Shown here: piece after piece, positions 1-62,944 of the stretch | How the letters are laid out: every line of letters begins with the position of its first letter | Numbering within the stretch: the first letter of the stretch is position 1 | NCBI RefSeq assembly: GCF_004010195.1 | Contig: NC_057751.1 | Coordinates: 8,236,404-8,300,403, forward strand | From: Chiloscyllium plagiosum | Lineage: Eukaryota | Reading direction: 5' to 3' | Length of the DNA: 64,000 nt | Translations under genes and position numbers: made by a program | The notes under the pieces: model-generated | Database searches by the model: none | What the model was told of the DNA's origin: nothing | What the model saw: only the letters and a program-made list of their open reading frames with translations

Positions 1-122
1 AGAAGGGCTTATGCCCGAAACGTCGATTCTCCTGTTCCCTGGATGCTGCCTGACCTGCTGCGCTTCTCCAGCAACACATTTTCAGCTCTGATCTCCAGCA
101 TCTGCTGACCTCACTTTCTCCT
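1..122 (+). mobile_element. PLE pseudo-LTR-derived short element, family A (HHR plus tail), cut by the window edge
   Basis: AGAAGGGCTTATGCCCGAAACGTCGATTCTCCTG...CTCCAGCATCTGCTGACCTCACTTTCTCC, near-identical to 41397-41521 and similar to 62129-62255. Confidence 0.85.
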
Positions 123-7639: not shown

Positions 7640-7826
7640 ACCAGTCCGCCCCTTTCCACACCCAAAATCCTGCCCCACCCATTGTCTGCAGCTTCTTTTC
7701 CACCCACCGCCAGTCCTGAAGAAGGGTTACACCAGAATCGTTGACTTCTCCACTCCCTAATGCTGCCTGGCTTGCTGTGTTCTTCCAGCCTCCTGCTCGC
7801 CTCACTCGGATTTCAGCATCTGCAGT
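7640..7826 (+). mobile_element. PLE pseudo-LTR, family C, with decayed HHR at 7712-7746
   Basis: AGTC-CTGAAGA-AGGGTTACACCA-GAATC-GTT-GACT; stem I AGTC/GACT; tail CAGCATCTGCAG; sister copy at 34490-34670. Confidence 0.7.
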
Positions 7827-11023: not shown

Positions 11024-11508
11024 GTAGGTCAAGGGACAGTTGGGAAGTGGGAGAACTTTAAAAATGAGTAACCAATAGTTCACAGATAATATGCTCCTGT
11101 TAGTGTGAAGGGCAAGGCTGGTAGGTGTAGGGAATGCCAGATGACTAGAAAAATTGACTTTCTGGTCAAGAAAAAAGACACGGCATATGTCAGGCATAAG
11201 CAGTGAATCCCTGGAGGACTATAAGGGCAGTGGAGTACACTTAAGAGGGAAATCAGGAGGGCAAAAAGGGGACATGAGGTAGCTTTGGCAATATGGTTAA
11301 GGTGAGTCCAAAGAGATTGCCTAAGTACATTAATATCAAAAGAGTGACTAGGAAGCGAATTGGGCCCCTTAAAGATCAGTGTGGCCATCGACATGTTGAA
11401 ACACAGGAGATGGGTGTGATACTAAATGAATATTTCACGTCAGTATTTACTGTGGACAAACACATGGAAACTGGGGAACATGGGGGAAAACACAGATGCC
11501 ATGAAAAT

Positions 11509-11597
11509 TCCTGAAGAAGGGCTCATGCCCGAAACGTCGATTCTCCTGTTCCTTGGATGCTGCCTGACCTGCTGCGCTTTTCCAGCAACACATTTTC
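11509..11597 (+). mobile_element. 89-bp family A PLE-derived element (HHR plus body, no tail) with 12-bp TSD
   Basis: TSD TGCCATGAAAAT at 11497-11508 and 11598-11609. Confidence 0.9.
11511..11538 (+). ncRNA. Minimal type I HHR motif, intact core
   Basis: CTGAAGA-A-GGGC-TCAT-GCCC-GAAAC-GTC; weak stem I ATTC/GATT. Confidence 0.7.
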
Positions 11598-15007: not shown

Positions 15008-15560
15008 TCAAGTGTGTGGTGCTGGAAAAGCACAGCAGGTCAGGCAGCATCCAAGGAGCAGGAAAATTGATGTTTTGGGCAAAAGCCCTTCATCAGGAAT
15101 TAGGCTGGGAGCCTCGGGAGTGGAGGTAGCTGACTGCGCAAGATGGAGATGGGGGTAAAGGTGATAGTTGGGGGGCTGGACCAGATAGGTGGGAAGGAAG
15201 ATGGACAGATGGGACGGGTCATGAAGGTGGTGTTGAGCTGGAAGGTTGGAACTGGGGTAAGGTGGGGGGAGGGGAAATGAGGAAACTGGTGAAATCCACA
15301 TTGGTACCATGGGGTTGGAAGGTCCTGAGGCAGAAGATGAGGCATTCTTCCTCCAGACGTCGGGTGGTTAGGGAATGGCAATGGAGGAGATCCAGGACCT
15401 GCATGTCCATGGCAGAGTGGGAGGGGGAGTTAAAGTGTTCGGCCACGGGCAGTGGGGTAGATTGGTGCGGGTGTCCTGGAGATGTTCTCTGAAGCACTCT
15501 CTGAGGAGGCATCCTGTCTCCCCAATGTAGAGGAGACCGCATCGGGAGCAACAGATACAG
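15008..15560 (-). mobile_element. PLE 3' part: frameshifted GIY-YIG endonuclease followed by the family A pseudo-LTR with decayed HHR (15067-15096)
   Basis: CICCSRCGLLYIGETG...FREH then PVAEHFNSPSHS...GTNVDFTSF; downstream CTGATGAAGGGCTTTTGCCCAAAACATC. Confidence 0.9.
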
Positions 15561-20025: not shown

Positions 20026-20218
20026 GAGAAAGTGAGGACTGCAGATGCTGGAGATCAGAGCTGAAAAAGCGCAGCAGGTCAGGCAGCATCCAAGGAGCAG
20101 GAGAAGGGCTCCTGAAGAAGGGCTGATTCCTGAAGAAGGGCTCATGCCCGAAACGTCGATTCTCCTGCTCCTTGGATGCTGCCTGACCTGCTGCGCTTTT
20201 CCAGCAACACATTTTCAG
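20026..20218. mobile_element. Family A inverted pair with stuttered junction and 15-bp TSD
   Basis: TSD ATCAAAGTCAAAGAG at 20011-20025 and 20219-20233. Confidence 0.9.
20125..20162 (+). ncRNA. Minimal type I HHR motif, intact core
   Basis: GATTC-CTGAAGA-A-GGGC-TCAT-GCCC-GAAAC-GTC-GATTC (stem I: 4 pairs plus a U.U mismatch). Confidence 0.72.
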
Positions 20219-34329: not shown

Positions 34330-35138
34330 TGTCATGATGCTGTCACTTTAAGAAGTTATTTTGTCCTGGTTTTTGTTTTCGAAGGGAGGTTATAAGGTAG
34401 AGACGCCAACTCGTCTATCAGAACCACGAGAGAAAATGGTTTGGGAGGTCTTGGTTTTTTTTAAAAAACAGCTTTAGTGGGTGTGGACAAGCAGAAGGCT
34501 GGGAGAACACAGCAAGCCAGGCAGCATCAGGAGGTGGTGAAGTCAACATTTCAAGTGTAACCCTTCTTCAGGACTCGGGGTGGGTTTAAAGTGAGCTGCA
34601 GATAAAGGGGGTGGGGGAGGAGAGACAGGGAATTGAGGTAGGGTAGGTGAACTCAGGCAGAGCATGATCTGGATGTGGCACAGATCAGGATTTCTGAGTT
34701 TTTAGGTTGAGCTTTCAGTAGAAGCCTTTGGGGTCTCAACAGAGTTGGAAGCTTCAGTGAATGTCTCCTAGCTGCCACTCTCTCTGAATTTTCTCTTGAT
34801 TTTTTTTGCCTTCTGGATTGGAGAACTGCATGCGAGAATCTTAATTTTCCTTTTTGCCAAGGGGTGTTTTTATGAGATGTTACGATATTGGAATAGCTAA
34901 TTGGTTACTATATCTATTAGTCTGTCAGGTTTTCCAGTAGACTTCAGTTATTCCAAATGCATCTTTCTTTGGTTGTATTTTAATTATAGTGTTTAAATAA
35001 ATTGTGCTTGACTTCACATTGAGTAGTCTGACCAGTTGTATTGCATCTGGAACATGGACTTCACATTTGTCTCAAAAGAGTTAGGGTCTAGGCTATCTTC
35101 TTAAAGTATTTTGAGAGAGTCTGGTCTGGTCCATAACA
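34330..35138 (+). mobile_element. Solo LTR (same family as 24143-24779) with a nested PLE pseudo-LTR
   Basis: TGTCATG...CCATAACA termini; flanks CCGG / CGGG (4-bp TSD with one mismatch). Confidence 0.68.
34490..34670 (-). mobile_element. PLE pseudo-LTR family C, HHR remnant at 34541-34575
   Basis: Minus strand AGTC-CTGAAGA-A-GGGTTACACTT-GAAAT-GTT-GACT. Confidence 0.7.
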
Positions 35139-41225: not shown

Positions 41226-41367
41226 TGACTGTTTTTGCTCAACTTCTTTACTCCTGGACGAAAGATGTTCATCTGGATAAGATTCTTGGGAGAAAGAGCT
41301 TCCCTGCTGCAAATGTGTTGCTGGAAAAGCGCAGCAGGTCAGGCAGCATCCAAGGAACAGGAGAATC

Positions 41368-41395
41368 GACGTTTCGGGCATAAGCCCTTCTTCAG
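41368..41395 (-). ncRNA. HHR core (5' strand of stem I lost at the junction)
   Basis: Minus strand CTGAAGA-A-GGGC-TTAT-GCCC-GAAAC-GTC. Confidence 0.6.
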
Positions 41396-41396
41396 G

Positions 41397-41424
41397 CTGA
41401 AGAAGGGCTGATGCCTGAAACGTC
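41397..41424 (+). ncRNA. HHR core (5' strand of stem I lost at the junction)
   Basis: CTGAAGA-A-GGGC-TGAT-GCCT-GAAAC-GTC. Confidence 0.55.
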
Positions 41425-41689
41425 GATTCTCCTGTTCCTTGGATGCTGCCTGACCTGCTGCGCTTTTCCAGCAACACATTTTCAGCTCTGATCTCCAGCA
41501 TCTGCAGTCCTCACTTTCTCCTTCCAGAAAGAGCTTCCCTTCCACCCCCATCCACCCCCTTCCCCTCATTTGGCCTGTACTCTTGCAAAGACCCTCAAAA
41601 CAGAAAGGAAAATGTAAGGAAAAAGATAACAATATTTATGAAAAATCAAATGGCTCATATCCATCCATCAGTCGTTTGACATTCAATTA

Positions 41690-61690: not shown

Positions 61691-62125
61691 TTCTAAATTT
61701 TGTCCGTGAGGTTGAGGAACTCAAGCTTGGTTTCAATCTCACTCGTCGCTGATTCATTGAACCTTCATCCAGGCACGTTCACTGGAAAAAAGTTCTCAAC
61801 AAAACATTTACCCAAAGAATAAACACACTGACATCCACATTACACCCGAGCACCTGGAAACATTGCAAAAGTGATGTTCATAATGTTTCAGTTTGAAGAA
61901 TATTAACTGCCATGTTGAGAAATGCATTCACACTGCAGTCATCCACCACACCGCAATACTTTCCGAGTTAAGTTCTTTTCTTATCATCTTCATCTAAAGA
62001 AGATTGGGACTGAAAAGAGGAGAACAACTCTTTGGTCATCTTCAAATAGGCTCCATCAGATTGAACATCATCCAAGTCAATGACACAGCAAGACAAGAAC
62101 CTTGGTTTCATGTCTTTAAAAACCA

Positions 62126-62165
62126 GGATTCCTGAAGAAGGGCCTGTGCCCGAAACGTCGAATCT
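62126..62165 (+). ncRNA. Best-formed minimal type I HHR in the window
   Basis: GGATTC-CTGAAGA-A-GGGC-CTGT-GCCC-GAAAC-GTC-GAATCT: 5 WC pairs plus G.U in stem I, 4-bp stem II, GUC triplet ending at 62159. Confidence 0.78.
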
Positions 62166-62255
62166 CCTGTGCCCTGGATGCTGCCTGACCTGCTGTGCTG
62201 TTCCAGCAATAAAGTTTCAACTTTGATCTCCAGCATCTGCAGACCTCACTTTCTC
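62129..62255 (+). mobile_element. 127-bp family A element (HHR, body and tail) with perfect 15-bp TSD
   Basis: TSD CTTTAAAAACCAGGA at 62114-62128 and 62256-62270. Confidence 0.92.
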
Positions 62256-62944
62256 CTTTAAAAACCAGGACCACTGATAATGTTATATCACTTCAGCGGC
62301 ACACTGAAGCATCGGCCTAAGTAATATCATCAGCACCCCAATGTGATGGGTTTCTTTCACAACCTTCAATGAGGATAATAACACCAGCTGGGCCAAGCTG
62401 ACCTTAACAATAATTTAGGCTATAAAATCTAAGCACTCCTGTCAATTTGCAACAAACATTCGCATTCCAGATTAAATTGATGCAGAGCAATGTGCGCGTG
62501 TAATTCAATTTTGGGATCCAGTTAATGAATATAAAACACTAACAGCTCAGTTGGTTCCTATTTATTGAGGTTTTATGAATCCCTCAATCGAATTAATGTT
62601 CTTCAACCCCTTGGTAGACATCCAGGCCCCCACGAAGCTGAAACACATCTACCACTTAACTGAAGCTCATGTTAAAAATTAAACAGAGCTACATCAAGAA
62701 CAATAGCTCAAAGATAACAAGGAATATTTCCATCACTTAATATGGATTTCAAAAGCTTCACATGTGGTGTAGACAGGTAACAAGTTGTGTCGCTGTAACG
62801 AGGCCTTCCTGATTTGTTCAGAATAAAGTATTTCTGAAACGTAGTGACTCCTTGTCGCATGGATAAATGTAGGAACCACTTCAAATGCAAACATCCCACA
62901 CTGACTTGCCAGTTAATGTGGTTTTGATCATTATTTCTGTGGGA

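What the first reader, a model, noticed from the sequence alone, without database searches (positions are those of the whole stretch)
62114..62270. Complete 127-bp ribozyme mini-element; best candidate for a cleavage test
Seen: perfect 15-bp TSD, intact core and GUC triplet. Stem I is fully paired (GATTC/GAATC, where other family A copies have a U.U mismatch), and flanking CAG could extend it across a 2-nt bulge. An AATAAA lies at 62208-62213. An extra A sits between A9 and stem II; such an insertion is tolerated in the CChMVd viroid hammerhead. Inference: a recent insertion of a non-coding unit mobilised by PLE machinery.
Basis: partly seen in the sequence, partly recalled or inferred. Interest (0 to 1): 0.7.

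Follow-up and report, generated by a model that had tools for sequence, protein, structure and literature searches.

The report
Penelope transposon stub with hammerhead ribozyme
This 130-base insertion is one of about nine thousand near-identical ends of a young Penelope-type jumping gene that carry a known tiny self-cutting-RNA motif, and it is likely a dead-end DNA copy of the uncut front end of the element's RNA rather than a self-contained mobile ribozyme.

Summary
The sequence observations hold: exact 15-bp repeat, hammerhead core, GUC, extra A and AATAAA. The reading as a special 'complete mini-element' does not. The same sequence is the pseudo-LTR end of a young Penelope-like element with a GIY-YIG endonuclease; its 49-nt tail has 9,104 exact copies. 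The element spans 62128-62257; both edges are microhomologies with the target. Family copies end at two fixed 3' sites (+94/95, +129-131), usually have 13-17 bp duplications, and often stop exactly at +1 (33 of 97), an initiator-like base. Only 3 of 94 start near the ribozyme cut. So it was likely copied from uncut RNA, run off its probably capped 5' end. The extra A is the norm for these ribozymes, the 5-bp stem is shared by 1,103 copies, and a monomer has no stem III. Natural head-to-tail derivatives are better cleavage substrates. The scan reported this same reading before on other DNA of this genome. Known kind; low interest as a single locus.

The parts
62114..62128 (+). Left copy of the 15-bp target-site duplication; its last A doubles as element base +1 and the G before it supplies the fifth stem-I pair
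   Evidence: native context CTC|ATTC in L003 and L028
62128..62257 (+). Inserted element, +1 to +130 of the PLE pseudo-LTR/leader; one base (62171) differs from the family majority
   Evidence: native continuation seen in L115
62127..62131 (+). Stem I, 5' strand (4 native bases plus the target G)
62132..62139 (+). Hammerhead core C3-A9 plus the extra unpaired A before stem II
   Evidence: hallmark listed in PMC4209133
62140..62151 (+). Stem II, 4 bp with a 4-nt loop, G10.1-C11.1 closing pair
62152..62159 (+). G12-A13-A14-A15.1, palindromic ACGT with no loop 3, U16.1, C17; predicted cut after 62159
   Evidence: architecture as in PMC4209133
62160..62164 (+). Stem I, 3' strand
62178..62257 (+). 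First 26 codons of a 42-codon upstream frame, in a different frame from the main ORF
   Evidence: no Pfam match
62208..62213 (+). AATAAA, present only in the young subfamily; 37 RNA reads from family copies show a poly(A)-like loose end after 62222
62221..62222 (+). First fixed 3' end of the family (+94/+95), inferred inner priming site
   Evidence: 32 of 46 mapped inverted arms end here
62223..62257 (+). 35-nt 'tail' between the two fixed 3' ends; +129-131 is the second inferred priming site
   Evidence: 69 of 94 copies end at +129-131; tail described in PMC8557442 and PMC11167929
62256..62270 (+). Right copy of the duplication; its first CT also matches the element

Best explanation
The insert is the first 130 bases of a young Penelope-like retrotransposon's leader, flanked by a 15-bp target duplication, and it was likely made when the element's protein primed reverse transcription at the inner 'tail' site of an uncut, probably capped transcript and ran off that RNA's 5' end. 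Shown: identity with the pseudo-LTR of an endonuclease-coding element, two fixed 3' ends, 13-17 bp duplications, a sharp 5' edge at +1, and very few ends at the ribozyme cut. Inferred: staggered GIY-YIG nicks about 15 bp apart; priming at +130 (here by 2-nt microhomology); +1 is the transcription start; the cDNA end annealed to the target through GA. When both nicked strands prime (one at +130, one at +95) the head-to-head form results; this copy is the one-arm form. The hammerhead is a passenger that begins at the RNA's first base and would need a second copy, and probably the protein, to cut. The stub has lost the bases upstream of +1 and everything beyond +130, so it is probably not mobile itself.
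For: Same 127 bases end an endonuclease-coding copy (L003). GIY-YIG above Pfam's cut-off in L253. 9,104 exact tail copies, only 354 exact matches across the tail end into the native continuation. 3' ends +128..+139 in 92 of 94; inverted arms end at +93..96 in 38 of 46; duplications found in 59 of 94, 49 of them 13-17 bp. One arm ends near +130 and the other near +95 in 82 of 119 head-to-head pairs. Of 97 consecutive copies holding +1..+37, 33 have no native base before +1, 19 have 1-2, 5 have 3-7 and 40 have 14 or more, spread over about 400 nt. 5' ends at +31..+35 in 3 of 94; 76 of 94 start at +30 or further upstream. Base before +1: C 6,459 (native), G 1,103, A 725, T 188 by subtraction. In simple insertions with a resolved duplication the G is not from the target in 12 of 21, against 2 of 11 for A. 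Internal priming at two sites, both-strand extension, use of uncut RNA and protein-assisted cleavage are shown in vitro for the anole element (PMC11167929). An extra G marks full-length L1 junctions (PMC11702581).
Against: No direct map of the RNA 5' end: the single-cell poly(A) run showed no place where many molecules begin or end, and the second run laid nothing. The G-versus-A contrast is not significant (Fisher p 0.06); only 2 of the 12 are a lone G, and G and A counts are both inflated by microhomology at head-to-head joints. In this copy the G is target-derived, so it carries no cap evidence itself. Forward 5' ends spread over -3..+14 (52 of 94), not just +1. In Drosophila Penelope the start site lies 46 bp ahead of a 75-bp intron whose end abuts helix I (PMC2377424, PMC4209133), so start = helix I is not general. 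No downstream promoter element was evident by eye. Arkhipova et al. read head-to-head palindromes as self-priming on an antisense template (PMC3846280). The reverse transcriptase was seen only as a weak match on an older sister copy (E 4.5e-4, below cut-off).
Confidence: 0.72

Rival explanations
1. Ordinary 5' truncation: the copy was primed at the downstream pseudo-LTR of a long or tandem transcript and broke off at a hot spot at the 5' edge of the ribozyme; +1 is not the RNA start.
For: PLE insertions are heavily 5'-truncated (PMC8557442). 40 of 97 copies do run on upstream of +1. Ends spread to +14. No RNA start mapped.
Against: A reverse transcriptase meets the structure from its 3' side, yet ends pile on the far 5' side and thin out to about one per ten bases upstream. 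+1 sits in TCA+1TTC, an initiator-type sequence (consensus recalled; initiator-like TCACT noted in rotifer pLTRs, PMC3846280). Non-target G is commoner than A before +1.
Confidence: 0.14
2. One reading: a dedicated 127-130 bp non-autonomous mini-element or retrozyme monomer that is transcribed and moved in trans as its own lineage.
For: About a thousand same-boundary copies (10 of 94, 7 with duplications). Non-autonomous PLE derivatives exist in print (bioRxiv 10.64898/2026.07.22.740005) and in this genome. Poly(A)-like ends after 62222 in 37 reads.
Against: No diagnostic sequence separates short from long copies: this copy equals the end of long copy L003, and its one variant differs between the two arms in 11 of 12 pairs that carry it, so it is recurrent. 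The derivatives that do recur keep 78 to 125 more bases past the tail and bases upstream of +1. The anole element needs RNA about 55 nt beyond its priming site (PMC11167929). A single hammerhead, no tandem.
Confidence: 0.09
3. Rolling-circle origin: the RNA is cut by the hammerhead, circularised and reverse-transcribed, and this is a unit-length piece.
For: Proposed for PLEs in PMC4209133; circles shown for canonical retrozymes (PMC7229834). Head-to-tail 224-bp units occur here. Earlier AI notes report U6 joined at the cut site (not tested by me).
Against: A circle has no end at +1, and a cut linear RNA would give ends at +33: only 3 of 94 lie at +31..+35. No RNA ends pile at the cut site (weak test). 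The 130 bases are not a circular permutation of any unit seen.
Confidence: 0.05

Closest known systems
Minimal type-I hammerheads in pseudo-LTRs of metazoan Penelope-like elements (Cervera and de la Pena 2014, PMC4209133; parts 1-2 of 4 read)
   Same: Conserved core, extra nucleotide between 9 and 10.1, G10.1-C11.1, palindromic 15.2-16.2 without loop 3, short helix I, mostly dispersed single motifs tied to truncated PLEs.
   Different: Helix II is 4 bp, not the 7-8 bp of the Schistosoma families; sharks are not named in the parts read; copy number of this one young subfamily (8,475 exact motifs) matches whole-genome counts given there for coelacanth and Xenopus.
PAc, Poseidon element of Anolis (Frangieh et al. 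2024, PMC11167929; parts 1-2 of 4 read)
   Same: Two inner priming sites that bound a 30-40 nt tail; both target strands extended; uncut RNA is the template; ribozyme near the ORF start.
   Different: Here the two sites lie in the leader, upstream of the main ATG (+167), not 111-118 nt inside the ORF; the linker has a cysteine motif of the Neptune/Nematis type; the paper does not describe run-off stubs in the parts read.
Solo pLTRs and inverted-pLTR insertions with tail and TSD in EN+ PLEs (PMC3846280 and PMC8557442; passages read)
   Same: Solo pLTRs, head-to-head arms, optional tail, short target duplications, initiator-like motif in the pLTR.
   Different: Duplications are 13-17 bp here, 8-10 bp in the rotifer examples; those papers attribute solos to truncation, recombination or deletion and palindromes to self-priming.
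Non-LTR retrozymes (PMC7229834 passages; bioRxiv 10.64898/2026.07.22.740005 parts 1 and 3 of 5 and passages)
   Same: Non-coding, type-I hammerhead, derived from PLE pLTRs, reported in one cartilaginous fish genome.
   Different: Defined as tandem units of about 150-450 bp; this copy is a single 130-bp stub. The 224-bp and 321-bp derivatives elsewhere in the genome fit better. Only 1 of 9 Xenopus dimers cleaved in that preprint.

Membership tests
PLE minimal hammerhead | Core C3-U4-G5-A6-N7-G8-A9 and G12-A13-A14 with U16.1-H17 | tested here: met
   62132-62138, 62152-62159
PLE minimal hammerhead | Extra nucleotide between 9 and 10.1; G10.1-C11.1 pair | tested here: met
   A62139; G62140-C62151
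PLE minimal hammerhead | Palindromic 15.2-16.2, helix III absent as a monomer | tested here: met
   ACGT 62155-62158, unpaired in the monomer fold
PLE minimal hammerhead | Lies in the pseudo-LTR of a PLE | tested here: met
   Follows the GIY-YIG stop codon and 3' leader in L003, L028, L253
PLE minimal hammerhead | Self-cleavage as dimer or with protein | not testable with these tools
   Two-copy energy folding did not give the active dimer; needs an assay
Endonuclease-bearing PLE (parent element) | C-terminal GIY-YIG endonuclease | tested here: met
   PF01541, 23.2 bits against cut-off 22.6
Endonuclease-bearing PLE (parent element) | Reverse transcriptase in the same ORF | tested here: inconclusive
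   RVT_1 E 4.5e-4, below cut-off, on a fragment of older copy L230; no intact young ORF was read end to end
Endonuclease-bearing PLE (parent element) | Pseudo-LTR, optional 30-40 bp tail, inverted 5'-truncated arm | tested here: met
   35-nt tail; inverted arm in 54 of 94 family copies, absent in this copy
Neptune clade | Zn-finger-like motif between RT and endonuclease, and RT phylogeny | tested here: inconclusive
   C-x4-C-x2-C before the endonuclease; shared by Neptune and Nematis; no tree built
Non-LTR retrozyme | Two or more hammerhead units in tandem, monomer about 150-450 bp | tested here: not met
   Single 130-bp unit
Non-LTR retrozyme | Circular RNA intermediate | not testable with these tools
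   Poly(A) single-cell run only
Canonical type-I hammerhead (Rfam) | Three helices, match at gathering score | tested here: not met
   0 matches in the window against 4,227 families

The most novel reading that the evidence does not exclude
These stubs are a genomic record of the Penelope insertion reaction in a living germ line: a protein dimer nicks both strands about 15 bp apart, primes at two fixed inner sites of a capped RNA whose very first base starts the hammerhead, and often runs off the cap instead of jumping to the RNA's 3' end, leaving strong-stop-like copies that make up about half of all ribozyme-bearing segments; the ribozyme would then act as a protein-gated switch that removes the cap-bearing first 32 bases.
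Probability: 0.5. Interest if true: 0.55.

Novelty: new member of a known kind. Interest (0 to 1): 0.24.

Why it matters
As a single locus it matters little: it is one of thousands of near-identical stubs in unique, apparently non-genic DNA. The family as a whole is useful because the steps of Penelope transposition after priming are still unproven, and the ends of these copies fit the in vitro two-site priming model, argue that templates are mostly uncut, and predict a capped start at the ribozyme's first base, which one CAGE experiment could test.

Tried and rejected
Rfam scan of the window: no match. Folding energy as proof of structure: z between -1.5 and 0 for the five stretches folded. 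Energy folding of two ribozyme copies gave a stem-II swap, not the active dimer; uninformative. The G at 62171 as a lineage marker: rejected, recurrent (loci carrying it were chosen by similarity to this copy). One search had a faulty upstream reference: its 5' values are not used, its 3' ends and duplication lengths are; 5' values come. The shared '101 C' variant is an artefact of the reference copy. A 52-codon open frame on the minus strand just left of the insert (61971-62126) as a disrupted exon: no homologue among longer proteins (weak test), no Pfam match, no RNA depth there in one run; left unsupported. Empty site: the left flank is unique in the assembly and no skipping joint appeared in three contig runs (contigs show presence, not absence). 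RNA: no RNA holder listed in the index; of two raw RNA runs one laid 1,060 reads from about 2% of the run and one laid none, with no pile of starts or ends. The paper recalled as showing dimer cleavage of PLE hammerheads (Lunse et al. 2017) is not held and is not relied on. A sequence look-up in earlier findings returned nothing. Supplements were not read for any paper; the preprint's tables may list this family.

Full report
Observation. The two 15-mers at 62114-62128 and 62256-62270 are identical and enclose 127 bp. RNAfold forms stems I and II and can recruit the flanking CAGG across a 2-nt bulge, but 15 to 22 of 200 shuffles fold as well. There is no stem III loop, and Rfam reports nothing in the window. 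The window itself holds more than a dozen older relatives.

What it is part of. The window lies in a 3.56-Gb genome; that the repeats are shark-type is my recall, echoed by earlier AI notes. The 49-nt tail of this copy has 9,104 exact matches and its reversed control none. Locus L003 carries the same 127 bases preceded by a leader and an endonuclease-coding end. L253 shows that end in full: a C-x4-C-x2-C linker and a GIY-YIG domain above Pfam's cut-off. The main ORF starts at +167 (numbering A62128 as +1), and the ATG at 62178 opens only a 42-codon upstream frame. Reverse transcriptase was seen only as a sub-threshold match on an older copy. The parent is therefore an endonuclease-bearing Penelope-like element, probably Neptune-type (no tree built).

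True boundaries. Natively +1 is preceded by CTC and the tail continues CTCGAAG. So A62128 and CT 62256-57 match both element and target, the element is 130 bp, and G62127, the fifth stem-I pair, belongs to the target. The copy differs from the family majority only at 62171. The +1..+37 motif occurs 8,475 times: 6,459 after C, 1,103 after G, 725 after A, 188 after T by subtraction; 4,278 keep eight exact native bases upstream.

Anatomy of the family. I took 94 of the first 100 listed tail matches, all on one contig (loci L031-L120). 3' ends fall at +128..+139 in 92 and at +129-131 in 69; 38 of 46 mapped inverted arms end at +93..96; duplications were found in 59, 49 of them 13-17 bp including microhomology (its 5' values were faulty and are not used). 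Reclassified, 54 have an inverted arm, 34 are simple, 4 compound and 2 unreadable; 10 simple copies start at -3..+3, 7 with a duplication, which scales to roughly a thousand copies like this one. Forward 5' ends: 19 upstream of -3, 52 at -3..+14, 5 at +15..30, 3 at +31..35, 15 beyond. In 119 head-to-head pairs from all fetched loci (not a random set), 82 pair a +130 arm with a +95 arm, and none mixes old and young subfamily at position +35. In 97 of the first 100 listed copies holding +1..+37, 33 have no native base upstream, 11 one, 8 two, 5 three to seven, and 40 run on for 14 to about 400 nt.

Mechanism. The two fixed 3' ends 35 nt apart match the tail and the two inner priming sites shown in vitro for the anole element, which extends both target strands, uses uncut RNA, needs RNA beyond the priming site, and whose ribozyme cuts only with protein (PMC11167929, parts 1-2 of 4). 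The sharp 5' edge lies on the far side of the ribozyme, in TCA+1TTC, an initiator-type sequence (consensus recalled); PLE pseudo-LTRs hold the promoter and start site (PMC2377424 and PMC8557442, passages). I infer that +1 is the RNA start and that this copy is a one-arm run-off product. The cap test is suggestive only: among 70 of the 1,103 G copies, 21 were simple with a resolved duplication and in 12 the G was not from the target (2 lone G, 10 ending longer inserts); among 50 of the 725 A copies the figure was 2 of 11 (Fisher p 0.06). Five listed rows at head-to-head places were skipped in each class when fetching. An extra G marks full-length L1 junctions (PMC11702581, passage). Against generality, Drosophila Penelope starts well upstream of its ribozyme, and head-to-head arms have been read as antisense self-priming (PMC3846280, passages).

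The ribozyme. The viroid precedent appears there only as a citation; its name is recalled. Only 1 of 9 Xenopus dimers cut (bioRxiv 10.64898/2026.07.22.740005, part 3). With 3 of 94 ends near the cut site, most templates were uncut. This copy is thus a poor lead substrate. Better ones exist: two internal-deletion junctions recur at 40 and 68 places, often together, giving natural head-to-tail units of 224 and about 321 bp; these are the real non-autonomous derivatives.

RNA and population data. One single-cell poly(A) run laid 1,060 reads from about 2% of the run, mostly older copies, with no pile of starts or ends; a second laid none. On the window, 475 reads fell on the repeat and none on the unique flanks; 37 ended in a poly(A)-like loose end after 62222, nine bases past the AATAAA. 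This may be real use of the signal in some copies, but older copies lack AATAAA and still end near +95. Contigs of two runs cross the junctions; one carries flank differences from the assembly and still enters the element, so at least two haplotypes hold it; no empty allele was seen in three runs of one study. Recent, then, but not shown to be polymorphic.

Novelty. Seven literature searches (listings only, except the papers named) found the ribozyme class, the tail, solo pseudo-LTRs and PLE-derived retrozymes (PMC7229834, passages) in print; none of the 20 of 35 papers listed contains 'strong-stop'. The library lacks most subscription papers and no supplements were read. I had noted the start-site idea before finding that earlier AI reports on other pieces of this genome reach the same reading; they are not independent support. 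Three of them report U6 joined at the cut site, a lead that the ribozyme sometimes cuts, which I did not test. Verdict: real, a new member of a known kind, interest 0.24.

Noticed in passing
L115 (G000:C1:26521014-26523401); 40 and 68 places listed: Two recurring internal deletions (+208 joined to -14; +255 joined to -66), often in the same insertion, make natural head-to-tail hammerhead units of 224 and about 321 bp: true non-autonomous, retrozyme-like derivatives.
   Followed up: partly
window 62222 (family position +95): 37 RNA reads from family copies end in a poly(A)-like tail exactly at the inner fixed 3' end, nine bases after the young subfamily's AATAAA.
   Followed up: partly
L099, L104, L268, L229: Both arms of some head-to-head insertions share private or sub-lineage variants, suggesting that both were copied from the same source.
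   Followed up: partly
L001:985-1498: About twelve tandem 44-bp copies of element bases +52..+96 precede a full stub, as if priming at +95 was repeated.
   Followed up: no
L079, L080: Runs of six or seven T after the +1 end of the inverted arm, possibly non-templated additions.
   Followed up: no
window 61971-62126, minus strand: 52-codon open frame that starts in the target site, behind a weak AG; no homologue, Pfam match or RNA found.
   Followed up: yes
window 41318-41520, 20026-20217, 928-1129, 11508-11597, 15020-15099, 1621-1700: Older-subfamily copies, several head-to-head, and more distant families at 7714-7789 and about 34500-34573.
   Followed up: partly
window 61832-61834, 62048, 62462: Other runs differ from the assembly by an insertion of about 45 bases and two substitutions in the flanks.
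   Followed up: no
L191, flank downstream of the element: The raw translation resembles part of a retroviral envelope transmembrane protein (resemblance recalled); observed only.
   Followed up: no
L253:6007-7050 minus strand: The N-terminal 348 residues of the PLE ORF include an Ala/Thr-rich stretch and an 11-residue proline-rich tandem repeat, with no Pfam match.
   Followed up: no
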